Source: Flavobacteriales bacterium (lineage in GTDB: Bacteria; Bacteroidota; Bacteroidia; Palsa-965). From it: 42,271 nucleotides of DNA. The position numbers and the translations under genes are program-made. The notes under the pieces are model-generated. The model saw only the letters and a list, made by a program, of their open reading frames with translations, searched no databases and had not been told where the DNA came from. The DNA lies in the NCBI GenBank assembly GCA_040377305.1, contig JBEIPA010000037.1:1-42271 (forward strand). The letters run 5' to 3'. Numbering within the stretch: the stretch's first letter is position 1; every line of letters starts with the position of its first letter. Shown in pieces: positions 5,511 to 30,480 of the stretch.

Positions 5511-6107
5511 CTTCAGTTTTTTATAGTCAGCGAGACTAGCCAAAATCACTTCGCGCGCCTTCTCGCTACCATATTCCGCTGCAATTTCCACTGGAGTACT
5601 GCCACTATCCGGCGACAATTTATACGTCATGAAATAGTGCTTCAGACGGTTGAGGACTTTCGCAGGAACCTGAGATAAATCTGTGAGATTTCCATAGACA
5701 GCGTCGTTCACGAGAACAGCAACAATCTTGTCGTCGGCTTCTCCTTTGTCGATCATACGCAAACCGCCAATGGGAATTGCTTTGAGTACGATGTCGCCAT
5801 GAGAAATAGTGTGTTCTGTGAGCACAACAATATCAAGCGGATCCCCATCCCCATTCTCAACGCCCGCGAGTTTTGCAATCCCGGATCCACAAAACGTTTG
5901 TGGTATGAATCCGTAAAGTAATGGTGCAACATTCGAATACAATTGCGGACGATCAATTTTCAGATAGCCACTTTCCTTGTCGATCTCATACTTGATGGTA
6001 TCACCGGGAACAATCTCAATGAAACACGTTACTTCTTCCGGACAATTTTCCCCCGGGGAAATTCCATGCCATGGATGTGCTTTCTGCTGAGGAAATTTAT
6101 TTGCCAT
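5502..6107 (-). CDS. ppa: Family I inorganic pyrophosphatase
   Basis: HPWHG, IKYEIDK, YGFIPQT, DGDPLD and DKGEADDKI motifs. Confidence 0.96.
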   Translation of the reverse strand: MANKFPQQKAHPWHGISPGENCPEEVTCFIEIVPGDTIKYEIDKESGYLKIDRPQLYSNVAPLLYGFIPQTFCGSGIAKLAGVENGDGDPLDIVVLTEHTISHGDIVLKAIPIGGLRMIDKGEADDKIVAVLVNDAVYGNLTDLSQVPAKVLNRLKHYFMTYKLSPDSGSTPVEIAAEYGSEKAREVILASLADYKKLKGN

Positions 6108-6702
6108 CGCGTTTAAACATTCTGCGTACGAAGTAGAAAATAATTGCGAGTCCGAGTAAGCCGGCAGTAAGATATCCGAATGCGGTTCCTGCCCCAGGCA
6201 ATTTATTCTGGTGAAGATTGTCTTTGACTTCGGTTGGATCGAGAAACTCCTGAATACCCAAACTATCCCGAAGGAATTTGAGTTCTTCCGTATAAGTTCC
6301 GCGATCCTGAAGTGGTGTGTTCAATGAATCGTGGGCAGGTTGTATGCGACTGAATGTGCAGAAATTGGAAGTTGCAATACCGCGACGTTTTTCAATATCG
6401 TATTCCATCCACTTACCATAGATCGTCCAGACTTCACCCGGCATAAAAGACAAACTACAGTCGGCAGAAGGATCGTGTTGAAGCTCGATGGCTCCGAATG
6501 CTGCTCCTTTGTACAACTCAACAATGGTAAACTGCACTCGTTGTTCTGTCTCATCGCCGGATGTTGCAAGTACTTTTCCGGTGAATATCACATCGTACTT
6601 TTCAGTTGCTTTCTTAGAAAGTTTCCCGAGATCGTTGCACACACATGCAAATGCGGGCAAGCCCAACAACATCAACAGCACTATAGAGAAGATACGCTTC
6701 AT
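6097..6702 (-). CDS. Exported TIMP/NTR-like protein with C-terminal membrane anchor
   Basis: Signal peptide ends AFA, giving a mature N-terminus CVC. DVIFTGKV, CSLSFMPGEVWTIYG and SNFCTFS segments; C-terminal TM helix plus basic tail. Confidence 0.65.
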   Translation of the reverse strand: MKRIFSIVLLMLLGLPAFACVCNDLGKLSKKATEKYDVIFTGKVLATSGDETEQRVQFTIVELYKGAAFGAIELQHDPSADCSLSFMPGEVWTIYGKWMEYDIEKRRGIATSNFCTFSRIQPAHDSLNTPLQDRGTYTEELKFLRDSLGIQEFLDPTEVKDNLHQNKLPGAGTAFGYLTAGLLGLAIIFYFVRRMFKRDGK

Positions 6703-8216: not shown

Positions 8217-8276
8217 ACCACTAAGATCACAAAGACACAAAGTTTAAATTCTTTGTGCCTTGGTGTACTTCGTGGT
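8217..8276. repeat. Inverted pair of CACnAAG-type short repeats (hairpin between hisS and hutH)
   Basis: accactaagatcacaaagacacaaag-tttaaatt-ctttgtgccttggtgtacttcgtggt. Confidence 0.55.
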
Positions 8277-9679
8277 CAAATTATTTTTTCCAGAAGCTCT
8301 GCAAATCCAACAGCGAACTGTTCGCCGCTCTGCATATTCTTCAGTGTTATCGTATTCGTCTTTCTTTCGTTCTCACCCACAATGGCAACAAACGGAATCT
8401 TCTTTGCATCAGCGTACTTGAACTGCTTGGCCATCTTCACGGCATCGAGATAAATCTCCGCAGCGATTCCGGCATCACGCACTTGCTTCAGCAATTTCAA
8501 AGAATATCTTTCGTCTTCTCCACCGAAGTTGGCGAACAAAACACGTGTTCCTTCTTTCGCCGTAACGTCTTCCGGATATCCAACTTCATTCAGCACATCA
8601 AAAATCCGATCGATACCGAATGAAATTCCAACGCCCGAAACATTGGGCAAACCGAAAATACCTGTGAGATCGTCGTAACGACCGCCACCGCAGATAGAAC
8701 TTGTTAGTGTTCCGGTGTTTGCTTTTACTTCGAAGATTGCGCCGGTATAGTAGTTGAGACCGCGAGCAAGTGTGATGTCCAGTTCGACAGTCGCGCTTGG
8801 TGCTCGGTTCTCGGTGCTCAGTTCTGCAATCGAATTGAACATCCATTCGATTTCTTCAATTCCCTTCGTTCCAATTGTTGAAGAACCGATCAGATTTTTA
8901 AGCAAGGAGATCTTCGCTGCAAAATCACCAGAGAACGAAATCAACGGTTGCAGTTTTTCAATCGCAGTTTCGCTCACACCTTTTTCGGCGAGTTCCTTGT
9001 TCACACCGTCAACACCTATCTTGTCGAGTTTATCGATTGCGACTGTGATATCGACAATGCGCTCCTTCTCTCCTACTACTTCTGCAATTCCGGAAAGTAT
9101 CTTGCGGTTGTTGATTTTGATAAGCACCGGAACTTTGAAGCCGGTGAACACTTCATCAATCATCTGCACCAATTCAACTTCATTGATCAGCGAAGTACTT
9201 CCGATTACGTCTGCGTCGCACTGAAAAAATTCTCGGTAGCGACCTTTCTGCGGACGATCTGCGCGCCACACGGGTTGAATCTGGTAACGCTTGAATGGAA
9301 AAGTAATTTCGTTTTGGTGTTGAACGACGTAGCGCGCGAAGGGAACGGTTAGGTCGTAGCGTAATGCCTTCTCTGTTATCTCATCGCTATTAATGCTCTT
9401 CTGCAATGAAAGTTCGAATGCATCACGCATTTTCTGTTTCTTCTCGTCTTTTGCATCGAAAGGACGTGAATTCAGAATTTTGAACAGAAGTTGATCTCCT
9501 TCATCTCCATACTTTCCCGTCAACGTTTCGATATTCTCCATCGCCGGTGTTTCAATCGGCTGGTAGCCATACTTTTTGAAAACAGAACGGATGGTGTCGA
9601 AAATGAAATTCCGGCGCATCATTTCATCGGGAGAAAAGTCGCGGGTGCCTTTGGGAGTGGATGGTTTTTGGGAGGCCAT
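8276..9679 (-). CDS. hisS: Histidine--tRNA ligase
   Basis: [58 protein letters not shown]-terminal anticodon-binding domain. Confidence 0.98.
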
Positions 9680-9689
9680 AAATCAGGCA

Positions 9690-9697
9690 CAAATCTA
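9690..9697 (-). promoter_or_regulatory. Bacteroidota sigmaA -7 box (TAGATTTG) for hisS
   Basis: Matches the TAnnTTTG consensus 10 nt upstream of the hisS ATG. Confidence 0.6.
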
Positions 9698-9721
9698 CGC
9701 AAATGCGAGGCTTAATAGGAC

Positions 9722-9756
9722 GCGGATTGAGCGGATTAAGCGGATTTTCGCGGATT
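9722..9756. repeat. Four GCGGATT units at ~9-nt period
   Basis: gcggattga-gcggattaa-gcggattttc-gcggatt. Confidence 0.7.
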
Positions 9757-10450
9757 ACTGAAGAATAGTTGTCATCACTCCCGTCTTCGATTTTAACTCA
9801 CTCTTCACTACGCCTTTCGACGGCACAAACCATTCAATAAAATCGTAAGTCTGCTCGGATGGAATTTTTCCCAGTGCGCCGTAATCCGTAACACTTCCTT
9901 TTCTCATTGTGGCTGCAATCCGGACGGCCTGGAAGGTTTCTGTCCCGACCACAACATTCTCGATCGCCACTACTTTACGGTGGTTCACAATTACAAAACG
10001 TTCGTTGTTTCCGGTACCATAAATCAACTCACTGGCAGAAGCAGAAGGTAAAGTATCGCCGATTTCCATGGTGTAGGGATATACCAGAGAATCTGTCCGG
10101 AGACTCACGATAAAGTTTGATGAATACGCCACAGGTATGTTTAAGTGATTGAGTGCGTCTACGCACCAGTTAATCGTGTCATTATAAAAGTGCAACCTGT
10201 ACTGAAACGTGCTTTTATGCTGATCATTCAGACGATTATCATGAGCGAAGATGGACGTACCGCTTCCTCTCGTTAGAACATCCTTGATCTTCACTTCCGC
10301 ATAACTGATTGCTCCGTTCTCTGCAGTGATAGTAAACTTGACGATGTTATCCTTCGTGAAATACTGCTGTGGTCGGATGAAGTAAGGAACGATGAAGCTT
10401 ATCGCAAAAACAGAAAGGAAAATCAAAAAGGAAAATTCAGTTTTTCGCAT
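9755..10450 (-). CDS. DUF3108-like/TapB-type exported protein, paralog 5 of array
   Basis: N-terminal hydrophobic segment; LVYPYTMEIGDTLP and EWFVPSKGVVKSE motifs shared with neighbours. Start taken at ATG 10450. Confidence 0.7.
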   Translation of the reverse strand: MRKTEFSFLIFLSVFAISFIVPYFIRPQQYFTKDNIVKFTITAENGAISYAEVKIKDVLTRGSGTSIFAHDNRLNDQHKSTFQYRLHFYNDTINWCVDALNHLNIPVAYSSNFIVSLRTDSLVYPYTMEIGDTLPSASASELIYGTGNNERFVIVNHRKVVAIENVVVGTETFQAVRIAATMRKGSVTDYGALGKIPSEQTYDFIEWFVPSKGVVKSELKSKTGVMTTILQ

Positions 10451-10495
10451 ACAGCAATTTACAAAAATGTGGCGGCTCAGTCTCCAACACCTCAC

Positions 10496-11215
10496 CTATT
10501 TATAACCATCCAATGTAACACGGGTTAATCCATTACTATCATTGAATTCGGCTTTCACCACTCCGATTTCAGGGACAAACCATTCGGTAATCGCAATCGT
10601 TCGCTTTCTGATGTACTTCTCATTCAAGTCTGTCGAGCTGTTCTCTACGCGATTGCACTTCATTTGTATTTTGTACGCCAGCTTTGTTCCTGCCGGTGTA
10701 GTTAACGAATCCGCTGCGGTTACCACTCTGTTGACGTAGTCAACACGAACACGCTCATCGTAATACCGGAAGTGTTGCGTGTTGCTAGCCCATGCTCCGG
10801 TTAATGTGTCCCCGATTTTCATGCTTAAGGGATACCATAGACTATCACCCGCATAATCACCAGTGGAGTTGACGTGATTCATCACGATGAAAGCATAGTT
10901 GGCTGCATGTGCATAGAAGTTCACTGAATCATAAGCAAACTGCAGAGGATATCGCCCATAAAGTGCGCCGTTACGATTATATTTTACCAACTCTGCTGTT
11001 GAATGCGCAGCAAGTTGCTTGTCTGTTACGGAATTAATAGTCACTTCAATCCGGCTTTTGTTCCCGCCTCCCCCTTTTGGAAATTCCACCTGACTGAACA
11101 AGAGAACATTTTTCTCATTAAAAAAGTGCGTGGGCCAGTCAATCGCTACCCATGAAAAACCGAGCAAGACCGGAGTCACAAGCAGCATAACCGGAAAGAG
11201 AAAACTGCGTTGCAT
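10496..11215 (-). CDS. DUF3108-like/TapB-type exported protein, paralog 4
   Basis: YPLSMKIGDTL, TTPAGTKLAYKI, EWFVPEIGVVKAE. Confidence 0.75.
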   Translation of the reverse strand: MQRSFLFPVMLLVTPVLLGFSWVAIDWPTHFFNEKNVLLFSQVEFPKGGGGNKSRIEVTINSVTDKQLAAHSTAELVKYNRNGALYGRYPLQFAYDSVNFYAHAANYAFIVMNHVNSTGDYAGDSLWYPLSMKIGDTLTGAWASNTQHFRYYDERVRVDYVNRVVTAADSLTTPAGTKLAYKIQMKCNRVENSSTDLNEKYIRKRTIAITEWFVPEIGVVKAEFNDSNGLTRVTLDGYK

Positions 11216-11242
11216 AGATCAATTTACAAAATCCAAAAAGAA

Positions 11243-11956
11243 CTACTCCGTGCTGTATTTGTCCAGTGAAATGATGCTGAAATAGCGTACTCCTTTTTCC
11301 TGTGCCTTCACTATGCCAAGCTGAGGAGAAAACCACTCTGTCATGGTTACATAGTCCTGCACCTCTGTCTTGCCGGAATACTGTGAATTTCCTTTCGAAC
11401 TAATCACTCTCAGTGCTACTACACGATATGCAGCAACTTTGCCGCAGGGAAGACTCAATGTATCCAGTGCTTCAACAGAACGTCTCGTAAACTCCATCAA
11501 CCCGCTTGTGGTTTCTCCGCGATTGGTCAACATTATTTTACACCATGCGTCGGGAAGTGTGTCACCAACTTTCATCTGAAGGGGATAGATCAGGCTATCT
11601 CCGGAAGTTTCGTCTTCACCTTTCTTTATGGTTTCAATGTCACGATTAAGAAAATTCTGCGCGTGTACGTAATAGTTGAGTGAATCGCATGCAAACTGAA
11701 ACAGGAAAGTTTTGTTTTTAGGAACTCCATCGAAACCGTAAGTCATTGTGGCATTACAGGACCAATGCGAACCATCCTTCTTCACTTCGGTTATTTGGAA
11801 TGAAGAAGCGTACTTCTGCTTTTTCATATCGGTGAAATCGAAATCTCCCGTGAAGGAAAACTCCGCTCCCACCCTAAAAACTGATTCCGGACGGTTGATT
11901 TCTTCTGAACTTAGAAGTGCAGACAGAGAAAGCGCAATGCCCGCGAAGATCTTCAT
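11243..11956 (-). CDS. DUF3108-like/TapB-type exported protein, paralog 3
   Basis: YPLQMKVGDTLPDA, LSLPCGKVAAYRV, EWFSPQLGIVKAQ. Confidence 0.75.
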   Translation of the reverse strand: MKIFAGIALSLSALLSSEEINRPESVFRVGAEFSFTGDFDFTDMKKQKYASSFQITEVKKDGSHWSCNATMTYGFDGVPKNKTFLFQFACDSLNYYVHAQNFLNRDIETIKKGEDETSGDSLIYPLQMKVGDTLPDAWCKIMLTNRGETTSGLMEFTRRSVEALDTLSLPCGKVAAYRVVALRVISSKGNSQYSGKTEVQDYVTMTEWFSPQLGIVKAQEKGVRYFSIISLDKYSTE

Positions 11957-11961
11957 GACGA

Positions 11962-12687
11962 CTATTGACCTTTCGTGAAGGCGGTGAGCTCAGTGTATCC
12001 CTGAAGCTTGCCTTTCTGATACGATTCTGATCGTACTGATCCCACCTTGTTACTGAACCACTCTGTTGTTTGTGTGGGTGGCATCGGCATATTGAAAGTT
12101 CCCATTCGCGTTGATCCTTCAAGAGTAGCCGTAATTTTATAGCACTCCCAGGTGCCAGCCGGTGTTGTTCTCGACTCGATAGCTACACACTTACGATCCT
12201 TCACCGCAATGTTTGTAACCACCACGAGCGGACTGTCTTTTGTTTTTACAGTCACCTTAATATTTCCGCCGGGAAGGGCTTGACCCACTGTCATTGCTGC
12301 AGGAAAATCAAGCATATCTGCTTCAACTGATACTTCTGCATCCTTTCCTGCTCCCTGTGAACTCGCCTGCTGCTTAGCCAATGCTGAAAGATCCATGCGC
12401 ATCAATCCGTTCTCACAGATAAAATTGAACGCCATAGTGTCTTTTGCAACACCTGCAGCATCTTTCGAAATTGCATCAATGGCAGCAGTGGTCTTCGTGG
12501 CTTCAACAGTAATCGCTTTTACAGTTGCGTCGGTACTTCCCTGCACTTTGCCTGATGCATCGTAGCTGGTAGTAGTGTACTGCGTTCCTTTTACGAACTC
12601 GTTGAACAAAGCGCAGTCGGAGGCAACGAAGCTACTCGCTGTGAGAAGCAAAACTGTCGCAGAGAAAATGAGTGATGTCCTTTTCAT
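11962..12687 (-). CDS. DUF3108-like/TapB-type exported protein, paralog 2 (most canonical)
   Basis: Signal peptide; FPAAMTVGQALP, TTPAGTWECYKI, EWFSNKVGSVRSESY. Confidence 0.8.
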   Translation of the reverse strand: MKRTSLIFSATVLLLTASSFVASDCALFNEFVKGTQYTTTSYDASGKVQGSTDATVKAITVEATKTTAAIDAISKDAAGVAKDTMAFNFICENGLMRMDLSALAKQQASSQGAGKDAEVSVEADMLDFPAAMTVGQALPGGNIKVTVKTKDSPLVVVTNIAVKDRKCVAIESRTTPAGTWECYKITATLEGSTRMGTFNMPMPPTQTTEWFSNKVGSVRSESYQKGKLQGYTELTAFTKGQ

Positions 12688-12697
12688 GGGTTAGAGT

Positions 12698-13450
12698 TTA
12701 TTTTGGAGCATTGATTTTTGTCAGCTCCGAGTAGTTTGTAAGCTTTCCTTCTACGTATGCTTCACAACGAACGGTACCAATCCTGGGACTGAACCATTCA
12801 ATGCAATCCATTATGATGACGTCGGCTTTTCCTTCAGGCGTTTTTACCGTTAACTGGTTCTTATATCTGATCTTAAAACAAGTCCACGTTCCTGCAGGAG
12901 TTGTCACCGCATGAATGGAATCACAGATACGATCCTTCCATTTCATGATTGTAAGATAAGTCACAGAACCACCTCCACCATTAGGACCAGCGAGTGGGTT
13001 CGGCCCAGCTTTCAACTTGATGGTGACTGACGCTTTCGCATCCTGCAACGTATCACCGATCTTCATATCCTTTGGATAGACAAGCGGATCACCTGCATAA
13101 CTTTTATCCGCATCGCCACCGAGTGATTTACTGCTACCAGCTAAAAAATGTCGAGGGTCAATTGAGAATGTACCCATATTACATTTCCAGTCCGAAATTG
13201 TAGGAGAACCTGCTACACCATCCTTATCACGGGCCGTCGTTTCAATTTTCGCATTAAATCCTGTTGGATCAGTTACAAATGTCTTCACCACAAACTCTGT
13301 ACTCGTAATTGTTCCATTCTTTTCATCGTGATTTGTCCAAACTAACTGCGTCCCTTCAGCGAATTCACAGCTACATAAGTCTTCTCCCACAGCCGAAGTC
13401 AGTAGAACAAATAGTATCAATACACCACTCAGAAATAAACTGCGAATCAC
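12698..13450 (-). CDS. DUF3108-like/TapB-type exported protein, paralog 1
   Basis: Signal peptide; YPKDMKIGDTLQDA, TTPAGTWTCFKI, EWFSPRIGTVRCE. Confidence 0.78.
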   Translation of the reverse strand: MIRSLFLSGVLILFVLLTSAVGEDLCSCEFAEGTQLVWTNHDEKNGTITSTEFVVKTFVTDPTGFNAKIETTARDKDGVAGSPTISDWKCNMGTFSIDPRHFLAGSSKSLGGDADKSYAGDPLVYPKDMKIGDTLQDAKASVTIKLKAGPNPLAGPNGGGGSVTYLTIMKWKDRICDSIHAVTTPAGTWTCFKIRYKNQLTVKTPEGKADVIIMDCIEWFSPRIGTVRCEAYVEGKLTNYSELTKINAPK

Positions 13451-13460
13451 AACGTAATGG

Positions 13461-15131
13461 TTAAACGGTCAACTTTTTATAACGGAATCGTTTCGGCTCA
13501 CTATCACCCAAACGTTTCTTCTTGTTCTCTTCGTATTCGGTGTATGTTCCTTCGAAGAAATACACAGAAGAATTTCCTTCGAATGCGAGAATGTGGGTAC
13601 ACACGCGATCGAGGAACCAACGGTCGTGAGAAATGATTACGGCACATCCGGCGAAGTTTTCCAAAGCTTCTTCGAGTGCACGCATCGTGTTCACATCAAT
13701 ATCGTTGGTCGGCTCATCGAGCAGCAACACGTTCGCTCCTCCACGCAAAGTCAATGCCAGATGCAAACGATTGCGTTCACCACCCGAAAGCACTTTCACT
13801 TTCTTGCCCTGATCTTGTCCGGCGAAGTTGAACTTGGAAACGTAAGCGCGTGAATTCAATTTCATTCCGCCCAGCTCAACGTATTCTGTTCCACCAGTGA
13901 TGGCTTCGAATACGGTATGCTCCTGATTAATATCTGAGTGCGCCTGATCAACGTAAGCAACTTTCACAGTTGGTCCCACTTTGAACTCACCAGCATCGGG
14001 ATTCTGCTCACCCATAATCATACGGAACAAGGTCGTTTTACCCGCACCGTTTGGTCCTATGATCCCTACAATTCCTGCAGGAGGTAATTTGAAATTCATT
14101 CCTTCATACAGGACCTTATCGCCGAATGCTTTGGATACACCGATCGCTTCAATAACCTCATTACCCAAACGCGGACCGTTCGGAATGAAGAGCTCCAATG
14201 TTTCTTCTTTCGATTTCACATCTTCACCGAGCATCTTCTCGTAATTCGCAATACGTGCTTTGGATTTCGACTGACGGCCTTTCGGTCCTTTGCGCACCCA
14301 TTCCAACTCGCGCTCGAGTGTTTTACGACGCTTGCTCTCCGTTTTCTCTTCCTGTGCGAGTCGTTTCGATTTCTGGTCCAGCCAATCGGAGTAATTTCCT
14401 TTCCACGGAATTCCTTCACCGCGATCCAATTCAAGAATCCATCCTGCAACGTTGTCGAGGAAATATCTATCGTGTGTTACAGAGATAATTGTTCCCGGAT
14501 AAGTTGCCAGGTGATTCTCCAACCACTGTACTGATTCAGCATCTAAGTGGTTAGTCGGCTCATCAAGGAGAAGAATATCCGGTTGCTTCAGAAGCAAACG
14601 ACATAATGCAACGCGACGACGTTCACCACCGGAGCAAACTGAAATCGGAGTATCGCCTTCCGGACACTGTAACGCATCCATAGAGCGCTCGAGTTTGTTC
14701 TCGATATTCCATGCATCGAGCTGATCAATTTTCTCCTGCAGATACGCCTGACGCGCGATGAGCTTGTCCATATCCGCATCCGGATCAGCGAACTTGTTGT
14801 TCACTTCTTCGAATTCAGTGAGCACATCTGTAATTTCCTGAACACCTTCTTTGACGATGTCCATTACCGTTTTCGTTTCATCGAACTTCGGCTCCTGCTC
14901 GAGCATTCCGATGGAATATCCCGGAGAGAAGTGAATATCACCAATGTAATCCTTGTCGACACCAGCAATGATGCGCAACAACGACGATTTACCGGAACCG
15001 TTCAAACCGATTACACCGATTTTCGCGCCGTAATAAAACGAGAGATAAATATCTTTTAGAACCTGTTTCTGTGGAGGGTGAATTTTTGAAACATTCACCA
15101 TCGAGAATATAATTTGTCTTCCTTCTGACAT
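13461..15131 (-). CDS. ettA: Energy-dependent translational throttle ABC-F ATPase EttA
   Basis: Two ABC domains (GLNGSGKS, GPNGAGKT; SGGE; LLLDEPTN); EttA-specific GEGIPWKGNYSDWL and ELEWVR...RQSKSKAR linker; C-terminal RFRYKKL. Confidence 0.95.
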   Translation of the reverse strand: MSEGRQIIFSMVNVSKIHPPQKQVLKDIYLSFYYGAKIGVIGLNGSGKSSLLRIIAGVDKDYIGDIHFSPGYSIGMLEQEPKFDETKTVMDIVKEGVQEITDVLTEFEEVNNKFADPDADMDKLIARQAYLQEKIDQLDAWNIENKLERSMDALQCPEGDTPISVCSGGERRRVALCRLLLKQPDILLLDEPTNHLDAESVQWLENHLATYPGTIISVTHDRYFLDNVAGWILELDRGEGIPWKGNYSDWLDQKSKRLAQEEKTESKRRKTLERELEWVRKGPKGRQSKSKARIANYEKMLGEDVKSKEETLELFIPNGPRLGNEVIEAIGVSKAFGDKVLYEGMNFKLPPAGIVGIIGPNGAGKTTLFRMIMGEQNPDAGEFKVGPTVKVAYVDQAHSDINQEHTVFEAITGGTEYVELGGMKLNSRAYVSKFNFAGQDQGKKVKVLSGGERNRLHLALTLRGGANVLLLDEPTNDIDVNTMRALEEALENFAGCAVIISHDRWFLDRVCTHILAFEGNSSVYFFEGTYTEYEENKKKRLGDSEPKRFRYKKLTV

Positions 15132-15161: not shown

Positions 15162-15169
15162 CAAATATA
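15162..15169 (-). promoter_or_regulatory. Bacteroidota -7 box (TATATTTG) for ettA
   Basis: TAnnTTTG match 30 nt upstream of the ATG. Confidence 0.6.
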
Positions 15170-15262
15170 CGCGTTCCCAGTTCTCAGTTTCCGGTTCCCT
15201 GTTGGGAAAAGTCGAGTATAATGCTAGAAAAGTGTCCGTATATTTCGAAAAACAGCACAACT

Positions 15263-15748
15263 ATGGCGAATCCGATAATCCAAAACCCTTGTCCGGAAAA
15301 ATGGGAAGGAATGACTCCCGACGAACAAGGACGTTTTTGCGGAAAGTGCTCCAAAATCGTGTTTGATTTTACGAAGAAGACAACCCAGGAAATTGTGGAC
15401 TTTTTGACAGCGCGAAAGGGCGATGATATTTGCGGAAAACTTAGAAAGCCTGCTTTGGTTCCTGTACGCGTATCAAAAGGAATAAAGCTCTTCGCAGCGG
15501 CAATTTATCTCGCGTTCGGTTCATTGCTTTTCTCTTCCTGCGGACCAACAGAACACGAGGAACCAATTGGAAAAGTTGGATTAGACAGCGCGGAAGCTGC
15601 AGAAAACCAATATCAATATGACTCGATGATGGCTGCTGATTCAATGGCTGTTCAGCCTACCAACGCAGACACAACAGACATGGATTCGGCAAAGATGATG
15701 AGCACGATTAACATACTCGACTCGATCATGAAAGCGAAGAATAAGTAG
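15263..15748 (+). CDS. Hypothetical protein with N-terminal Cys4 domain and internal lipobox-like TM segment
   Basis: NPCPEKWEGM...GRFCGKC...DFT...ICG motif common in Bacteroidota, then a hydrophobic stretch ending LLFSSC and a low-complexity tail. Start at ATG 15263. Confidence 0.7.
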   Translation: MANPIIQNPCPEKWEGMTPDEQGRFCGKCSKIVFDFTKKTTQEIVDFLTARKGDDICGKLRKPALVPVRVSKGIKLFAAAIYLAFGSLLFSSCGPTEHEEPIGKVGLDSAEAAENQYQYDSMMAADSMAVQPTNADTTDMDSAKMMSTINILDSIMKAKNK

Positions 15749-15749
15749 T

Positions 15750-16391
15750 TTACTTCGAAAAATACAACGGATGTTTCTCGTTGTATTTCCGCAAGTAAAT
15801 AAACGCCTGATCTTTCTTCTGACGCTTTTTCAATGCATCGTACTCTGCACCTAAAACCGGATCGCGTTGCAAAATGTAGGAGATTGTTTGCGGATTGAAA
15901 TCGTAAACGCTTCCTGTTTTTGTATCGAGCACATATTGCTGCAAGGATTCAACCGGCGTTCCATACTGCTGTGTTGGTGCACTTCCCGGTCCGGTATACA
16001 TGTAATTCGTAACGTACGCAGTGAAGTGACAAATGGTACCAATTACCACTACACGATTGAATGTGTAATTGTAACGTATGTAAACCGTTTTGTTTTCACA
16101 ATATCCCCACGTGGAAACAGTTTTTGTGGTGTGAAGAACTCCTGCCGTGTCGCGCCACTGAAAACTCGTCTTTGTTAATAGCAGACGAAGAAAGTCAAGC
16201 TTGCTTGTATCACCTTCAAAAACGAGTGCGCTTTTCGGAAGCGGGGAATTATTCCGGAACTGCTCGAAGGAGAGATAGATGCCAGAATTGAAAGAAAATC
16301 CTTGTGTGTATTGTATAGAATCGCTCTGTGCTGATGCAACCATCGTTAAACACAATAACAATCCTAATGTTCCTGCTCTCATTTGATTCAA
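15750..16391 (-). CDS. Hypothetical exported protein
   Basis: Signal peptide (ASA|Q); GIYLSFEQFRNNSP and WGYCENKTVYI segments typical of Bacteroidota hypotheticals. Confidence 0.75.
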   Translation of the reverse strand: MNQMRAGTLGLLLCLTMVASAQSDSIQYTQGFSFNSGIYLSFEQFRNNSPLPKSALVFEGDTSKLDFLRLLLTKTSFQWRDTAGVLHTTKTVSTWGYCENKTVYIRYNYTFNRVVVIGTICHFTAYVTNYMYTGPGSAPTQQYGTPVESLQQYVLDTKTGSVYDFNPQTISYILQRDPVLGAEYDALKKRQKKDQAFIYLRKYNEKHPLYFSK

Positions 16392-20023: not shown

Positions 20024-20209
20024 CCATCGCAAAACCCGCCCGATGAACTCAGCTGCCCGGATCCTGTTCCCCCAGGATAAGCACGTGAATCGCAATGCTC
20101 CGGCATTGTTCCCTACCGAATTCTTCGGACAGAATTGCGCACACACAATTTCCTTCCATTGCCACCTTGAGTGCAGTCGAAGGGTCCACACTTACAAAAC
20201 CAATTGCTG

Positions 20210-23200
20210 ATGAAGAAGATCATTTTAAGAATGATGGCGTTTGCATTGCTGGCTGTACCGGCTCTCATGAACGCGCAAGCACCCACGTTCCGCTTTTCGT
20301 ATGACATAGGCGCATTCGATATTGCCGGAGGAATGGTGCAGACTCCAACCGGAGAATTTACTTACGCAGGCTTGAACAACTCCTTCGGTCCGTATTACGG
20401 AAACGCAATGCAAATTGACGCACAAGGACAAGTTGTTTGGGCGAAGTCTTACACTGCAGGATTTGCGAGTAGCTTTTCCGACATCAAGAACGTGAGCACA
20501 GGAGGATACATTGTTACCGGACAATCTACCAGTAGCGGTGGTGGTGCAATTCTTGTTCGTCTCGATGCAACAGGCAACATCGTGTGGTCGTTCCGTTATC
20601 AGCTTCCGAACATTCCTTCAGGTAATGCTTCAAGCGAATATGGTTCAGCCGTTATTGAAACTTCCGACGGTGGATTTCTCGTTGGTGGTGGTGTAGATTA
20701 TTTCTGGGACGGCGTTAGCGGAACAACTGTTGACACGACAAGCGCACTCGGTTTCAAAGTAAACTCAACCGGCACACTCTTGTGGAGTCATGTTTGGCCA
20801 ATTACTGTTACCAACCCCGATGAACATTATATCAGTGATGTTGCAGAATCAGCGGACGGATACTACTTCGCTGGTCAGTCTTCTGAAGGAACAGGAACAC
20901 TTAGTAGTAACGGAGATTATCCAAGCCAGGGGTTGCTGATCAAAACAAACATTGCAGGCACAACACAATTCGTGCGTCGGTTCGGAGCAGGAGGATCATC
21001 GCAAGGATTGAATTGCATTATTCGTCTTTCGACAGGCAATATGCTCTGCGGAGGATTCGATGCAGAGCATGCCATGATGTTCTCCATTAACGGAACAGGA
21101 AGCTCAACCCCTGTTGTTGCTTTTAACCGACGTCTTACTGGCGGACTTTTCACGAGTATTTATATGCTCAACGACATCGTGGAGAACTCCGACGGTAACT
21201 ATTCAATCATCGGAACACGATTGCAGTTCCTTTCTGTTGCATTAACCACAATGATCGTAAAAATCAACAGCACAACAGGTGCTCTGATGTTTGGAAGATA
21301 TTACGCACCAATCGGACTGAGTGGAATTCTTCCGGAAGGTGGATTGTGCAGTGATCAGGGATACTACATCTCTATTACCGATCAGCAATTAGCAGGTTTC
21401 AATGCGAATATCATCCGAACTGATCCAACCGGTCAGGTAAGTACTGCAGCAGGTTGTCAGGGTACAGCTTTCAGTCCGGCGCTTGCGGGACAAACCGTAA
21501 CGTGGAGCACACCTACCAGCGGGGATTTCAACTTACTAACTTCTTCCACCGCCACGTTTACCGTCAATAACCAGACTCCGACGCGCACGCAACATTGTTT
21601 GAATATTCCGGCGATTCTTTCTGCAACATCAACACGCACAAACGTTACTTGTTTTGGCGCATGTAACGGAACAGCAACCGCTACTCCTGTTGGTGGAACT
21701 GCTCCATATACTTATTCATGGAACTCTGCACCCGTGCAAACAACGGCAACTGCTACCGGATTATGTCCCGGGAACTATACGTGTACTATTACAGATAACG
21801 TGGGCGCAACGACCACGACTACTGTAAACATTACACAACCTGCAGCAGCTTTGAGTGCGAACATATCTTCTCAAACCAACCTGGCCTGTAACGCTGTCTG
21901 CAGCGGAGCAGCAACAGTGAGTGCGTCTGGTGGTACTGCAGGCTACACGTATGCCTGGGCTCCATCGGGAGGAACAGGAACAACTGCATCGAACTTGTGC
22001 GCTGGTGTTTACACCGTAACCATAACTGATGCCAACAACTGTACAACGACGCAAACTGCGAACATCACACAACCTACTGCGGTTACCGCGACAGCTACTT
22101 CTACTCCATCCAGTTGCGCCGGTAACACCGGAAGTGCAACAGCATCTCCGAGTGGTGGTGCAGGCGGATACACGTACAGCTGGAGTCCATCAGGACAAAC
22201 AACTGCAACTGCAACGAATCTGGCTCCGGGAGCTTATGTTGTTACCGTGACTGACGCGAATGGTTGTACAACAACTGCGAACGTAACTGTTTCAACAACG
22301 TCCGGACCGACTGCATCCTTGCTTGGTGCACCAACTGATGTTTTATGTTTCGGTGGAAACAACGGTAGTGCAACTGTGAATGTGAGTGGTGGTTCTCCGG
22401 GATACACGTATTCATGGGCTCCATCAGGAGGAACAACTGCGACAGGCACAAATCTTACCGCAGGAAACTATACGTGTACAATTACAGATCAGGCTGGTTG
22501 CGTAACGACACAAACCGTTGCGATAACAGAGCCTTCACTCCTTACAGCAACTGCTTCATCAGCGCAAACAAGCTGTACGAACACCGGAAGCGCTACTGCG
22601 AATCCAAGTGGAGGTGCCGGATCATACACGTATGTTTGGTCACCATCCGGAGGAACAGCGCAAACGGAAAACAACCTTGGAGTGGGAACATACTCGTGTG
22701 TAATAACTGATGCGAATGGATGTACAACTTCAACGTCAGCGTCAATTACACTCGGTACTCCAATTACAGTTGGTGTTTCTGCAACTTCATCTACGGTTTG
22801 CGCAGGAACTACGACTACACTCACCGCAAGCGGCGCAACGAACTACAACTGGCAGCCCGGTGGTCAGACCACAAATACAATTGTTGTTACGCCATCTTCT
22901 TCAACAACCTATACGTTGATCGGAACAGACGGTACAAATTGCGCAGATACAACGACATTCCTTGTTAACGTAAATCCTACTCCAACAGTTGCCGTTGTGG
23001 CAAACCCTGCTTCAATTTGTCAGGGCGACAGCGTGCAGATTGGTGCTGGTGGTGCAAGTACATACTTGTGGTTGCCGGGCAATCAAACAACTGCTGTGAT
23101 CACTGAATACCCAACAGCGACAACTACATACACCATCATCGGAACTGATGCTTTAGGTTGCTCAGACACAACAACTGTTACAGTCGTTGTGAACTCTACA

Positions 23201-24568
23201 CCTTCGATCACAGCAAGTGCAAGTACGGATACATCTTGCACAGGTGCTCCTGTAACACTTACAGGTACAGGTGCAAGTACATACAACTGGACACCAGGTC
23301 CGTTAACAGGAAACTCAGTCGTTGTGAATCCTACGGTGAACACAACGTATACCGTTATCGGCTTGAATGGCGTGTGTGCCGATACAGCAACAGTTGATAT
23401 TGCCGTTACACCAGGACCAACAATCAGCGTTTCTTCCGGCAATGACACAATCTGTCAGGGAAGTTCAAGCACAATGACCGCTAGCGGCGCTGTTACCTAT
23501 GCTTGGTCGAGCGGAGGAACAAACGCAAGTGAAACTGTTTCTCCATCCGCAAGCGCAACGTATACGGTAACAGGAACTGATGCAAACGGTTGTTCAACCA
23601 CTGCAACGTTCTCTGTAACAGTAAACATTCCTGCTGCAGTAATTGTTACAGGAACGAATACAATCTGCAACGGAAGCACATCAACACTCACAGCAAGCGG
23701 CGGTGTTAGTTATGTGTGGAGCACTTCTGCAACATCGACCTCGATCACGGTGAATCCAACCGCGTCTCAAACGTATTCAGTAGTTGGAACAGACGTGAAT
23801 GGTTGCACGAACAGCACAACTTACTCTGTAACCGTTGTTCCGCCTCCAACAGCAGGTGTAACAGGAAACACCGTTGCATGTCCGGGATCACCAGTAACAC
23901 TAACGGCTTCCGGTGGTGGTACATACGTGTGGTTGCCAACAGGTGGAACTTCATCAACAGAGATTGTGACTCCATCAGCATCGACGACTTATTCTGTTGT
24001 GGTTTCAAACGGTACTTGTACGGATACAGCATCAATCACTGTAACAGTCGGAACAGGTCCTGCTGCTAACGCCGGTGCTGATACTACAATCAACTACGGT
24101 GGTTCTGCACAGATCAACGGATCCGGTGGCGGAACTTATGCATGGTCGCCTTCGGGTACATTGGATGATGCCACAGCAGCGAATCCAGTAGCAACTCCAA
24201 CGGTGACGACAACTTATACAGTTATTGTAACAGATGCGAACGGTTGTACTGCAATTGACTCGATGACAGTTTATGTTGATTTCGATTGCGGAACGATTTT
24301 CGTTCCAAACATCTTCTCTCCGAACTTCGACCAGCACAATGATGAGTTGCAGGTTTACGGAACACTCTGCGTAGAGAATTTCCATTGGGCAATTTACGAT
24401 CGTTGGGGCGAACTCGTTTTCGAAACAACAGACCCGAATCAGAAATGGGACGGAACATACAAAGGGAAAATGCTTGATCCTGCTGTGTTCGTTTATCGTT
24501 TGACGTACAATGAACTCACAACCGGTGAGGCGAAAGAAGCACACGGAAACGTAACGTTGGTTAAGTAA
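20210..24568 (+). CDS. Large T9SS type B cargo: N-terminal beta-propeller, SprB repeats, Ig/PKD-like repeats, gliding-motility (CHU_C) CTD
   Basis: Signal peptide from MKKIIL; ~5 SprB repeats (CFGACNGTATA..GGTAPYTYSW); several 'ICxG..TLTASG..Y.W..P..TTTYTV.GTD.NGC' repeats; CTD FVPNIFSPNFD...IYDRWGE...WDG...VFVY. Confidence 0.9.
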   Translation: MKKIILRMMAFALLAVPALMNAQAPTFRFSYDIGAFDIAGGMVQTPTGEFTYAGLNNSFGPYYGNAMQIDAQGQVVWAKSYTAGFASSFSDIKNVSTGGYIVTGQSTSSGGGAILVRLDATGNIVWSFRYQLPNIPSGNASSEYGSAVIETSDGGFLVGGGVDYFWDGVSGTTVDTTSALGFKVNSTGTLLWSHVWPITVTNPDEHYISDVAESADGYYFAGQSSEGTGTLSSNGDYPSQGLLIKTNIAGTTQFVRRFGAGGSSQGLNCIIRLSTGNMLCGGFDAEHAMMFSINGTGSSTPVVAFNRRLTGGLFTSIYMLNDIVENSDGNYSIIGTRLQFLSVALTTMIVKINSTTGALMFGRYYAPIGLSGILPEGGLCSDQGYYISITDQQLAGFNANIIRTDPTGQVSTAAGCQGTAFSPALAGQTVTWSTPTSGDFNLLTSSTATFTVNNQTPTRTQHCLNIPAILSATSTRTNVTCFGACNGTATATPVGGTAPYTYSWNSAPVQTTATATGLCPGNYTCTITDNVGATTTTTVNITQPAAALSANISSQTNLACNAVCSGAATVSASGGTAGYTYAWAPSGGTGTTASNLCAGVYTVTITDANNCTTTQTANITQPTAVTATATSTPSSCAGNTGSATASPSGGAGGYTYSWSPSGQTTATATNLAPGAYVVTVTDANGCTTTANVTVSTTSGPTASLLGAPTDVLCFGGNNGSATVNVSGGSPGYTYSWAPSGGTTATGTNLTAGNYTCTITDQAGCVTTQTVAITEPSLLTATASSAQTSCTNTGSATANPSGGAGSYTYVWSPSGGTAQTENNLGVGTYSCVITDANGCTTSTSASITLGTPITVGVSATSSTVCAGTTTTLTASGATNYNWQPGGQTTNTIVVTPSSSTTYTLIGTDGTNCADTTTFLVNVNPTPTVAVVANPASICQGDSVQIGAGGASTYLWLPGNQTTAVITEYPTATTTYTIIGTDALGCSDTTTVTVVVNSTPSITASASTDTSCTGAPVTLTGTGASTYNWTPGPLTGNSVVVNPTVNTTYTVIGLNGVCADTATVDIAVTPGPTISVSSGNDTICQGSSSTMTASGAVTYAWSSGGTNASETVSPSASATYTVTGTDANGCSTTATFSVTVNIPAAVIVTGTNTICNGSTSTLTASGGVSYVWSTSATSTSITVNPTASQTYSVVGTDVNGCTNSTTYSVTVVPPPTAGVTGNTVACPGSPVTLTASGGGTYVWLPTGGTSSTEIVTPSASTTYSVVVSNGTCTDTASITVTVGTGPAANAGADTTINYGGSAQINGSGGGTYAWSPSGTLDDATAANPVATPTVTTTYTVIVTDANGCTAIDSMTVYVDFDCGTIFVPNIFSPNFDQHNDELQVYGTLCVENFHWAIYDRWGELVFETTDPNQKWDGTYKGKMLDPAVFVYRLTYNELTTGEAKEAHGNVTLVK

Positions 24569-24589
24569 ATCCTGCAAAAAGAAAAGATC

Positions 24590-25636
24590 ATGAAAAACTC
24601 ATTGAAATATACTTTATCAATTGCAGGTCTCGCACTCGGTGCGTTCACACTGCAGGCACAAGACATTCACCATTCCATGTTCAACGAAACGCCCGTGTTG
24701 CTGAATCCCGCACGCGCGGGTGTTCCGTTCGATGCACGCGCTATCCTGAACTACAAGAGTCAGTGGTCGACAGTTGCTGAGCCCTACAAAACAGTTGCTT
24801 TCAGTGGCGACCTGGCTCTGTTCAAGAAGAAGAACAAGAAAGCCTACATGGGACTTGGTCTTACATTCTACAACGACAAAGCCGGTGACGTAGGAATGAA
24901 AACAACACAAGTTGGACTTTCCATTTCCGGAGTTCTGAAAGTGAGTGACAACAGTTTGCTTTCTGCTGGATTGATGACCGGATTCGTTCAGCGCGGAATC
25001 GGAAGCGGCAACCAGCAATGGGGCGAGCAGTACGATGGAACACAGTGGAACTCGTCACTTGGGAGTGGAGAATCTTCAACGCTTCAGAATCACAACCTTG
25101 TTGATCTTGGTGTCGGTGTAAATTATTACTTCGGCAAAGGAGAGAAATATCTGTCGGCTAACGACGGAGTGAAAATGAACATCGGTGTTGCATTATTTCA
25201 CCCACACGGACCGAAGTATTCGTACTACATGGATGCAACGGAAAAATTATATGCGAAGTTTGTCGCGCATGGTTGGGCTTCCTTCGGAACTGGAAACAGC
25301 AATCTGTGCATCGAACCATCTTTCGTTTACTTCAGACAGGGAAGTCAGCAGGAATTTACACCAGGTGTAAACTTCAAGTACATTCTCAGCGAAGCATCGA
25401 AATACACCGGACGTAAAAAAGCTTCTGCATTTTCACTTGGAGGTTATCTCCGCGCGAAAGATGCATTCATTGCAACAACCATGTTTGAATTCAGCAGTTA
25501 TGCTGTTGGATTCAGCTATGATGTAAACGTTTCCTCACTACGAGTAGTGAGCCAAAAGCGTGGTGGATTCGAAGTGTTTCTGCGTTTCGTATTCCCGAAT
25601 CCGTTTGGAGCTCCTTCCAGCAAATCAATGATTTAA
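24590..25636 (+). CDS. PorP/SprF-family T9SS membrane protein
   Basis: QDIHHSMF..TPVLLNPA, NYKSQW, DKAG, GFSYDVNVSSL, GGFEV; immediately follows a type B CTD gene. Confidence 0.92.
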   Translation: MKNSLKYTLSIAGLALGAFTLQAQDIHHSMFNETPVLLNPARAGVPFDARAILNYKSQWSTVAEPYKTVAFSGDLALFKKKNKKAYMGLGLTFYNDKAGDVGMKTTQVGLSISGVLKVSDNSLLSAGLMTGFVQRGIGSGNQQWGEQYDGTQWNSSLGSGESSTLQNHNLVDLGVGVNYYFGKGEKYLSANDGVKMNIGVALFHPHGPKYSYYMDATEKLYAKFVAHGWASFGTGNSNLCIEPSFVYFRQGSQQEFTPGVNFKYILSEASKYTGRKKASAFSLGGYLRAKDAFIATTMFEFSSYAVGFSYDVNVSSLRVVSQKRGGFEVFLRFVFPNPFGAPSSKSMI

Positions 25637-25641
25637 GAACG

Positions 25642-30425: not shown

Positions 30426-30480
30426 TGCCGAACTCTAAAGGTCGCAAATAAATAGCGACTTGTAAGGTTAATTGAAAGTC

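What the first reader, a model, noticed from the sequence alone, without database searches (positions are those of the whole stretch)
9755..13450. Tandem array of five highly divergent exported DUF3108-like/TapB-type paralogs between ettA and hisS
Seen: five ~230-250 aa genes with 5-45 bp gaps. They share only [YF]P..M.[IV]G[DQ].L, T(T)PAGT....[KR]I (degraded in paralogs 3 and 5) and EWF....G.V[KR].E; their N-halves are barely alignable by eye. Each has an N-terminal hydrophobic or signal segment, and paralogs 1-3 carry extra Cys. Inference: a lineage-specific expansion of a periplasmic beta-rich ligand/lipid carrier, T9SS accessory or immunity-like family into a diversified repertoire. This is the best protein-level candidate for an undescribed system here.
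Basis: partly seen in the sequence, partly recalled or inferred. Interest (0 to 1): 0.7.

Follow-up and report, generated by a model that had tools for sequence, protein, structure and literature searches.

The report
Variable array of exported DUF3108-like barrels
Five neighbouring genes encode very divergent copies of one known but functionally unexplained exported barrel-protein family; relatives carry one to five copies at the same spot, and the extra copies likely bind different small greasy molecules than the conserved original, a modest variation on a common bacterial pattern.

Summary
The array is real: five intact minus-strand genes, 23-33% identical, all above the Pfam DUF3108_like (PF21347, NCBI 'TapB family') cut-off. 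Models of p2 and p4 share one beta-barrel fold whose clear matches are the unannotated structures 3FZX and 4FVS. It is not unique to this genome: 24 of 27 genus genomes carry the family, always just upstream of hisS, in 1-5 copies. One conserved 'core' gene (p2: three invariant Cys, Met-rich hairpins) is ancestral; p3-p5 belong to derived classes that lost the first Cys and the Met lining. Orthologous pairs show purifying selection (dN/dS 0.03-0.30); copies are gained by duplication and probably lateral exchange. No toxin, T9SS cargo or TPR partner is linked. Best reading: exported soluble barrels binding hydrophobic ligands, with re-lined pockets in the extra copies (function inferred, about 45%). 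Family and fold are known, and this genome has 20 tandem clusters of three or more homologues, so it is a new variant, not a new system.

The parts
12698..13450 (-). p1: core-type paralog (keeps the three Cys and TPAGT) but without the Met-rich hairpins and with a Gly/Pro loop insertion; possibly acquired laterally
   Evidence: PF21347 78.4 bits; 32% to p2, 46% to P0005; GC3 0.37, lowest 3% of 1341 genome genes of like size
11962..12687 (-). p2: the conserved core gene, orthologue of the single copy found across the genus and in other Bacteroidia; Cys25, Cys91, Cys182; predicted soluble YmcC-like barrel
   Evidence: PF21347 139.2 bits; trees; model pLDDT 91.2; 3FZX E 2e-15, 4FVS Z 21.4
11243..11956 (-). 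p3: derived paralog of the class that usually follows the core gene; no Cys25, other Cys positions
   Evidence: PF21347 36.8 bits; orthologues up to 59% identical; starred clade of 11
10496..11215 (-). p4: most divergent derived paralog, no close orthologue found; same predicted fold as p2
   Evidence: PF21347 42.3 bits; model pLDDT 90.8; 3FZX E 4e-11, 4FVS Z 18.4; long end branch
9755..10450 (-). p5: derived paralog; likely start is the ATG at 10450 (frame is open from 10495)
   Evidence: PF21347 33.2 bits; 55% to its G015 orthologue; start supported by the leader shared with p4 and orthologue length
13461..15131 (-). ABC-F ATPase (ettA): conserved upstream flank and likely first gene of the transcript
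   Evidence: Pfam; upstream of the family in 23 of 24 genus genomes; 10-nt gap to p1
8276..9679 (-). hisS: conserved downstream flank
   Evidence: Pfam tRNA-synt_His; downstream in 24 of 24 genus genomes with the family
15162..15169 (-). TAnnTTTG box (Bacteroidota -7 promoter consensus) about 30 nt before ettA; candidate promoter of ettA-p1..p5
   Evidence: consensus as stated in PMC9723704 passages; such a box in 5 of 23 ettA leaders and 0 of 20 derived-paralog leaders: weak
9690..9697 (-). TAnnTTTG box 10 nt before hisS; candidate separate hisS promoter
   Evidence: same spacing in 4 of 23 hisS leaders
11212..11231 (-). 20-nt leader of p4, 90% alike to the leader of p5 (10447-10466): remnant of duplication
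   Evidence: repeat family D3
10447..10466 (-). 20-nt leader of p5, second copy of the shared leader
   Evidence: repeat family D3

Best explanation
This is a variable-copy tandem array of one known family (DUF3108-like/TapB): one conserved core gene plus four divergent copies, likely co-transcribed from the ettA promoter, whose products are predicted to be exported, soluble beta-barrels that likely bind hydrophobic ligands, the extra copies likely having re-lined the binding surface for other ligands. Shown: homology, family, copy number 1-5 at a fixed locus, core versus derived classes, purifying selection within classes, loss of the first Cys and of the Met-rich segments in the derived classes. 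Predicted: the fold (2 of 5 modelled). Inferred: Sec export to the periplasm (hydrophobic N-terminus, no lipobox, no T9SS tail); a Cys25-Cys91 disulfide in the core; that the uncharged, Met/Gly/Ser/Val-rich strand face lines a pocket; the ligand class (lipid or other hydrophobic molecule); growth by tandem duplication and occasional lateral gain in an insertion-tolerant slot behind a housekeeping promoter, then fast divergence and stabilisation (birth-and-death).
For: Family and fold. Fixed locus, variable number: 12 genomes with 1 copy, 6 with 2, 2 with 3, 2 with 4, 2 with 5, of 24 (G013, G007, G015, G042 counted across contig breaks); at least 6 changes of copy number on the 23-genome tree. 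Outside the genus 0 of 27 loci have a second copy within 1.5 kb. Core signature: first Cys 25 of 25 core rows against 0 of 35 derived; Met 12.1% against 2.7% and ILVFMC 31% against 21% in the lid and two long hairpins, counted between conserved anchors; strands alternate an uncharged with a charged face (7% against 34% KRDE in the core); aromatic residues on the uncharged face rise from 12% to 21% in derived copies. Selection: dN/dS 0.03-0.09 in four core pairs and 0.06-0.30 in five derived pairs. Duplication: p4/p5 shared leader; two neighbours in L083 are 81% identical over the first 27 residues and 39% after. Lateral gain: in L105 one core copy is 90% like G014's and the next 57% like the distant G019's and 33% like G014's; the last paralog of G015 and G007 is 87% identical in DNA and 88% in protein while their cores are 69% and 68%; p1's low GC3. 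The slot also takes unrelated genes. Lipid or hydrophobic-ligand binders recur among the weaker fold matches (LmcA Z 8.3/9.3, MucB/RseB 6-8.5, LolA/LolB/LppX 6-7.7, vitellogenin 7-8).
Against: No ligand, cavity volume or coordinates were seen; the 'inner' face was assigned by strand parity from the core's own charges, which is partly circular, and mean side-chain volume on it does not differ (137 against 140). All ligand-binder fold matches are at or near the Z of about 8 that the tool calls background, and below 12-stranded outer-membrane barrels (Z about 10). The two characterised relatives act through protein partners: TapB binds TprA (PMC4674972 passage) and GfcB binds GfcC/GfcD (PMC8592465 passages). 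Among the five, identity is as low on the uncharged face (22%) as on the charged one (20%), so divergence is not focused on the pocket. Between G000 and G015 the paralogs are no more diverged (55-56%) than neighbouring exported hypothetical genes (50-65%). This genome's own p2 is only mildly Met-rich (4 Met in 75 residues of those segments). Promoter evidence is weak (box in only 5 of 23 ettA leaders).
Confidence: 0.45

Rival explanations
1. The proteins are periplasmic protein-binding adaptors, like TapB (binds the TPR protein TprA) or GfcB (binds GfcC/GfcD); the Met-rich face grips partner peptides and each paralog has its own partner, or paralogs form hetero-oligomers.
For: Relatives are named 'TapB family protein' (2 of the 120 listed hits); TapB-TprA binding (review passage); GfcB homodimer and complexes; YmcC/GfcB 2IN5 is the next Foldseek match after 3FZX/4FVS (E 1e-3 and 5e-4); Met-rich surfaces that bind peptides are known (recalled, no call).
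Against: No conserved partner gene: among 56 of 86 neighbouring ORFs scanned from class-wide loci, one TPR protein and no T9SS cargo; no T9SS tail on the five; copy number changes freely, which fits poorly with a fixed complex; no lipobox, unlike GfcB.
Confidence: 0.27
2. The extra copies are near-redundant products of birth-and-death in a permissive slot, kept for dosage or split sub-functions of the ancestral job, without new specificities.
For: 20 tandem clusters of three or more homologues in this genome; 12 of 24 genus genomes manage with one copy; divergence like that of other exported genes.
Against: All full-length copies retrieved are intact, with dN/dS at most 0.30; classes persist across species with long stems and short tips; derived copies share a directional change in Cys and Met.
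Confidence: 0.13
3. The array is a bank of periplasmic immunity or decoy proteins collected against toxins or antimicrobials of competitors.
For: Tandem, divergent, exported, variable in number, with signs of lateral gain; the same slot holds an AbiLi/PDC-M38-like defence pair in G016, with similar-looking pairs in G021 and G041.
Against: No toxin gene beside the array in the window or the genus loci read; no PADLOC match for the five; whole-gene dN/dS far below 1; the ancestor is a single conserved gene among housekeeping genes; the single plasmid hit is a chromosome-like stretch with tyrS and rnpA.
Confidence: 0.08
4. The proteins are small outer-membrane beta-barrels, or enzymes using the invariant Arg/Glu/Trp cluster (as VioE does on a related fold).
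For: 12-stranded outer-membrane barrels rank second by VIA-align (Z about 10); PMC4364669 calls DUF3108 proteins outer-membrane barrels with the YmcC fold (passage); Arg144 is invariant in 60 of 60 rows and Glu188/Trp189 nearly so in the derived classes; VioE appears at Z 6.6-6.8.
Against: Mature proteins are hydrophilic (GRAVY -0.15 to -0.38), none ends in an aromatic residue, and one face is 26-38% charged; 4FVS stands far above the membrane barrels (Z 21.4/18.4); the core varies at Glu188 (18 of 25).
Confidence: 0.07

Closest known systems
Pfam PF21347 DUF3108_like / NCBI 'TapB family protein'; structures 3FZX (BF2203, Bacteroides fragilis) and 4FVS (BDI_3050, Parabacteroides distasonis)
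   Same: All five pass the Pfam cut-off; profile matches both structures (E 7e-15, 1e-17); models superpose over 201 residues; export signal.
   Different: Elsewhere in the class it is nearly always one gene; here a five-gene array in which p3-p5 lack the first Cys and the Met-rich segments and score only 33-42 bits.
Porphyromonas gingivalis TapB (PG2101) of the tapABC operon
   Same: Gives its name to the family; periplasmic (PMC4674972 passage).
   Different: TapB lies between two T9SS cargo genes (PMC10470040, PMC10101095 passages) and binds TprA; here the flanks are ettA and hisS. TapB's own sequence was not compared.
E. coli GfcB/YmcC (PDB 2IN5), group 4 capsule lipoprotein
   Same: YmcC-like fold (Foldseek E 1e-3/5e-4; Z 8.1/9.8).
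   Different: 5-11% identity; GfcB is a lipoprotein in a capsule operon; no lipobox or capsule genes here.
LolA/LolB/RseB-MucB/LprG-LppX and LmcA soluble lipid-binding barrels
   Same: Curved antiparallel sheet or barrel with an uncharged face; recur among weak fold matches (Z 6-9).
   Different: No sequence match; Z at background level; no Lol pathway linkage. A 'works like' lead, not membership.
Lineage-specific tandem arrays of exported paralogs in Bacteroidota (e.g. GLPGLI-family clusters, recalled, no call)
   Same: Tandem, divergent, signal-bearing copies; 19 other clusters of three or more occur in this genome.
   Different: This one is tied for the largest (5), is among the most divergent, and sits in a fixed housekeeping slot with a traceable ancestral copy.

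Membership tests
DUF3108-like (PF21347) / TapB family | Score over Pfam's gathering cut-off (27 bits) | tested here: met
   78.4, 139.2, 36.8, 42.3, 33.2 bits for p1-p5
DUF3108-like (PF21347) / TapB family | YmcC-like barrel as in 3FZX/4FVS | tested here: met
   p2 and p4 models: Foldseek E 2e-15 and 4e-11, VIA Z 21.4 (rmsd 2.7, 201 aligned) and 18.4 (3.4, 201); p1, p3, p5 not modelled, linked by sequence
DUF3108-like (PF21347) / TapB family | N-terminal export signal | tested here: met
   one hydrophobic N-terminal window in 5 of 5; no signal-peptide predictor was run
TapB in the strict sense (tapABC/TprA system) | Encoded between T9SS cargo genes tapA and tapC | tested here: not met
   flanks are ettA and hisS; the 544-569 aa inserts of G013/G010 have no Pfam match
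TapB in the strict sense (tapABC/TprA system) | Binds a TprA-type TPR protein | not testable with these tools
   needs binding assays; the primary paper was not held
LolA/LolB-type lipoprotein carriers | Sequence match to LolA/LolB profiles | tested here: not met
   no such Pfam family at E 0.05, no NCBIfam family at E 0.1
LolA/LolB-type lipoprotein carriers | Open barrel with lid enclosing a hydrophobic cavity | tested here: inconclusive
   Z 6-7.7, background level; uncharged strand face present; cavity not measured
LolA/LolB-type lipoprotein carriers | Binds acyl chains | not testable with these tools
   needs lipidomics or binding assays
GfcB/YmcC capsule lipoproteins | Lipobox with N-terminal Cys | tested here: not met
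   pattern found in 0 of the 5 and 1 of 62 aligned rows
GfcB/YmcC capsule lipoproteins | Located in a capsule export operon | tested here: not met
   neighbours
T9SS cargo or accessory | C-terminal T9SS sorting domain or linkage to T9SS genes | tested here: not met
   no Por_Secre_tail/CHU_C on the five, though found on six other window proteins; family found in only 51 of 301 class genomes
Orphan immunity arrays | Cognate toxin gene or known immunity domain | tested here: not met
Orphan immunity arrays | Positive selection | tested here: inconclusive
   whole-gene dN/dS 0.03-0.30; site models not run, too few close strains
Orphan immunity arrays | Cassette gain, loss and lateral exchange | tested here: met
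   the lateral cases rest on three observations, none tested by a formal tree test
Outer-membrane beta-barrels | C-terminal aromatic signal and lipid-facing hydrophobic exterior | tested here: not met
   C-terminal residues K, Q, E, K, Q; GRAVY negative

The most novel reading that the evidence does not exclude
The ettA-hisS slot is a swappable cassette locus in which one Bacteroidia lineage builds a repertoire of periplasmic binding barrels, by duplicating and trading them between species and re-lining a Met-rich pocket, to capture or neutralise a range of environmental hydrophobic compounds or competitors' antimicrobials: a natural series that could assign the first ligands to the DUF3108-like/TapB family.
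Probability: 0.2. Interest if true: 0.65.

Novelty: new variant of a known kind. Interest (0 to 1): 0.35.

Why it matters
PF21347 has two solved structures and a name borrowed from a P. gingivalis virulence-linked protein, yet no biochemical function turned up in my searches. A conserved core beside copies that lost one Cys and the Met-rich lining is a ready-made contrast for finding what the barrel binds. It is also a clean case of gene-family birth, turnover and exchange at a fixed housekeeping locus. It does not reveal a new multi-gene machine, and the organisms are uncultured, which limits genetics.

Tried and rejected
Complex prediction p2 + p3: score 0.01, no verdict, no evidence either way. 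Sequencing runs: no RNA holder listed; run X2 has no cover over p1, which shows nothing about absence. Deep profile search of the 1.84-billion representatives never ran, so the range of the derived classes rests. NCBIfam: nothing for the five. PADLOC: nothing for the five. Other copies in G000: none (next best E 0.09). Sigma-70 promoter and terminator scan: at chance level. The p4/p5 leader motif as a genome-wide start signal: 4 of 26 sites precede an ORF, dropped. A recombination tract anchored in hisS between G015 and G007: rejected, the first 210 nt of hisS are 82-91% alike in all seven pairs tried. Insert genes of G013/G010 as TapA/TapC equivalents: no T9SS tail, absent from G000. Conserved functional neighbourhood outside the genus: none. 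Mobile carriage: one plasmid record that looks chromosomal and one unannotated 8-kb phage-collection record at 24% identity, not followed. One origin or several for the derived classes: unresolved, support 79/64 and 87 with long branches. In one search the row for the first L105 copy was the wrong ORF; its identities there are void and were redone. Kondo et al. 2010 could not be read. Earlier findings of the scan: none returned.
Full report
Observation. All ten pairs align at 23-33% identity, with no meaningful DNA similarity. A profile of the five finds no other copy among 29,830 open frames of the genome. The genes around it (T9SS cargo, PorP, SprB repeats) place the organism in Bacteroidota; record titles of five related loci read uncultured Bacteroidia/Bacteroidota assemblies, three of them labelled Chryseobacterium.

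Family and fold. All five pass the cut-off of Pfam PF21347 DUF3108_like; two of 120 listed relatives of the core are named 'TapB family protein' by their sources; the ESM Atlas returns DUF3108 clusters for p2 and p4. The five-gene profile matches two solved sequences of 177,635, 4FVS and 3FZX. AlphaFold2 models of p2 and p4, the conserved and the most divergent copy, are confident (pLDDT 91.2 and 90.8) and have the same order of 13 strands with one short helix after the fifth. Both match 3FZX/4FVS first and E. coli YmcC/GfcB next by Foldseek; by VIA-align 4FVS scores Z 21.4 and 18.4, outer-membrane 12-stranded barrels about 10, and LmcA, MucB/RseB, LolA/LolB, LppX and vitellogenin 6-9, which is near background. 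p1, p3 and p5 were not modelled. Core and derived profiles align over 198 columns.

Distribution. In the genus 24 of 27 genomes carry the family; the three without are 66, 72 and 90% complete. In all 24 it lies upstream of hisS, in 23 also downstream of ettA (not seen in G020); copy number is 1 in twelve genomes, 2 in six, 3 in two, 4 in two and 5 in two (four genomes are counted across contig breaks, G013's fourth copy, G015's broken copy). On a tree of ettA+hisS+hutH for 23 genomes (G020 left out), the 3-5-copy genomes form one clade (support 100), and copy number changes at least 6 times. In the class, 51 of 301 genomes match and 44 pass the cut-off; none of 27 loci from outside the genus has a second copy within 1.5 kb. 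Of 80 metagenome loci, only 39 of which have 900 nt on both sides, 6 hold more than one family ORF: four of this genus's type, one outside pair (L156) and one split gene. Of 86 neighbouring ORFs from the class-wide loci I scanned 56; they show no shared function, though ettA, with or without hisS, flanks the single gene in four other genera. These counts include the unpublished genomes G012 (one copy; also a row in the alignments and trees) and G114 (one outside locus); leaving them out lowers the counts by one each and changes no conclusion.

Core and derived classes. Trees of 62 and 85 rows (partial ORFs left out in the first) put one gene per genome, p2 here, in a core group that includes the single genes of other families; p1 lies with or beside it; p3-p5 fall in derived classes with long stems and short tips. 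Three Cys are present in 25 of 25 core rows, against 0, 19 and 1 of 35 derived rows. Counted between conserved anchors, the lid and two long hairpins hold 12.1% Met and 31% ILVFMC in the core against 2.7% and 21% in derived copies; p2 itself is at the low end. Core strands alternate an uncharged face of Met, Gly, Ser and Val with a Lys/Glu/Thr face; derived copies put more aromatic residues on the first half of that face and charged residues on the long hairpins. That this face lines a pocket is inferred, without coordinates, and its definition from the core is partly circular.

Evolution. Nei-Gojobori dN/dS is 0.03-0.09 in four core pairs and 0.06-0.30 in five derived pairs; exported neighbours give 0.05-0.19; more distant pairs are saturated. 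So the copies are maintained, not decaying, and not under gene-wide positive selection. Duplication is visible in the leader shared by p4 and p5 and in two neighbours of L083 with near-identical N-termini. Three observations point to lateral gain: two core types of distant lineages side by side in L105, a terminal paralog 87% identical in DNA between G015 and G007 whose cores are 69% identical, and p1's low GC3. None was put to a formal tree test, and a proposed tract into hisS was rejected. The slot also takes unrelated genes: 544-569 aa exported proteins in G013/G010 and an AbiLi/PDC-M38-like pair in G016, with look-alike pairs in G021 and G041. TAnnTTTG boxes stand before ettA and hisS and nowhere inside the array, in line with one ettA-p1-p5 transcript, but the box is found in only 5 of 23 ettA leaders.

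How it most likely works. The proteins would be exported by Sec and, lacking a lipobox and a T9SS tail, stay in the periplasm as soluble barrels. The core would hold a hydrophobic ligand on its Met-rich face; extra copies, expressed for free behind a housekeeping promoter, would re-line that face and be kept for other ligands. I give this 0.45. The main rival, a protein-binding adaptor as reported for TapB and GfcB, gets 0.27; redundancy 0.13; immunity or decoys 0.08; membrane barrel or enzyme 0.07. Results against the best reading: ligand-binder fold matches are at background level; divergence is no greater on one face than the other; the characterised relatives bind proteins; one paper calls the family outer-membrane barrels.

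What is known. Papers seen: PMC4674972 (passages: TapB is periplasmic and binds TprA), PMC5581868 (passages), PMC10470040 and PMC10101095 (one passage each: tapABC operon, TapA/TapC T9SS cargo), PMC4364669 and PMC11402942 (one passage each naming DUF3108), PMC8592465 (abstract and passages on GfcB), PMC8972800 (abstract and passages on LmcA cavities), PMC9723704 (passages on the -7 box), PMC11885536 (search listing only). Kondo et al. 2010 was not available. Searches for DUF3108 (5 papers), TapB/TapA/TprA (8), YmcC/GfcB/3FZX/4FVS/2IN5 (5), TapB family/BF2203/BDI_3050/PG2101/PGN_0153/PF21347 (3) and YmcC-like/DUF3108-like/TapB protein (1) showed no account of tandem arrays or of a ligand; subscription journals and supplements were not searched and may hold proteomic or fitness data.

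Verdict. A real, well-supported array of a known family and fold with unknown function. It is tied for the largest of 20 tandem clusters of three or more homologues in this genome, so the pattern is ordinary for the organism; what is new is the traceable split into a conserved Cys/Met-rich core and derived, exchanged copies at a fixed locus. New variant of a known kind; interest 0.35.

Noticed in passing
window 9700-9760: Short GCGGATT-unit tandem repeat between p5 and hisS with 12 other blastn hits in the genome and loose ends in both runs; looks like a dispersed extragenic repeat.
   Followed up: partly
L023:3019-6376 (G013) and L028:5217-6851 (G010): One or two 544-569 aa exported proteins, 28-34% identical to each other, without Pfam or PADLOC match and absent from G000, inserted between ettA and the core gene.
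   Followed up: partly
L033:6473-8150 (G016); L031:5247-6892 (G021); L041:4997-6683 (G041): AAA ATPase + DUF3226 gene pair between the array and hisS; the G016 pair matches AbiLi/PDC-M38 defence models; the other two were judged by look only.
   Followed up: partly
L038:4320-4718 (G019): A PD-(D/E)XK_3 nuclease gene inserted between hisS and hutH.
   Followed up: no
P0066 against window 11962-12687: A close relative of p2 is 75-77% identical in the first half and 93-95% in the second, a possible mosaic.
   Followed up: partly
genome contig C52:183997-186767 and C52:147568-153894: Another five-gene cluster of short exported homologues (35-42% identity) and a four-gene cluster of about 500 aa homologues (71-88%).
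   Followed up: no
window 27942-32895: Two tandem DUF7948 + CHU_C T9SS-exported proteins of about 800 aa.
   Followed up: no
window 20171-27177: SprB-repeat/CHU_C cargo, PorP/SprF and PD40-OmpA genes in a row: a type B T9SS cargo cassette.
   Followed up: no
window 6097-6702, 15221-15748, 15750-16391: Three unannotated genes conserved in synteny across much of the genus; the 175 aa one has a Cys-rich N-terminus.
   Followed up: no
L156:1-1706: A tandem pair of core-type genes outside this genus, showing that duplication also happens elsewhere.
   Followed up: partly
L167 (NZ_OY725801.1): A record filed as a Parabacteroides plasmid carries tyrS, rnpA and lpdA around the family gene and looks like a chromosome fragment.
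   Followed up: no
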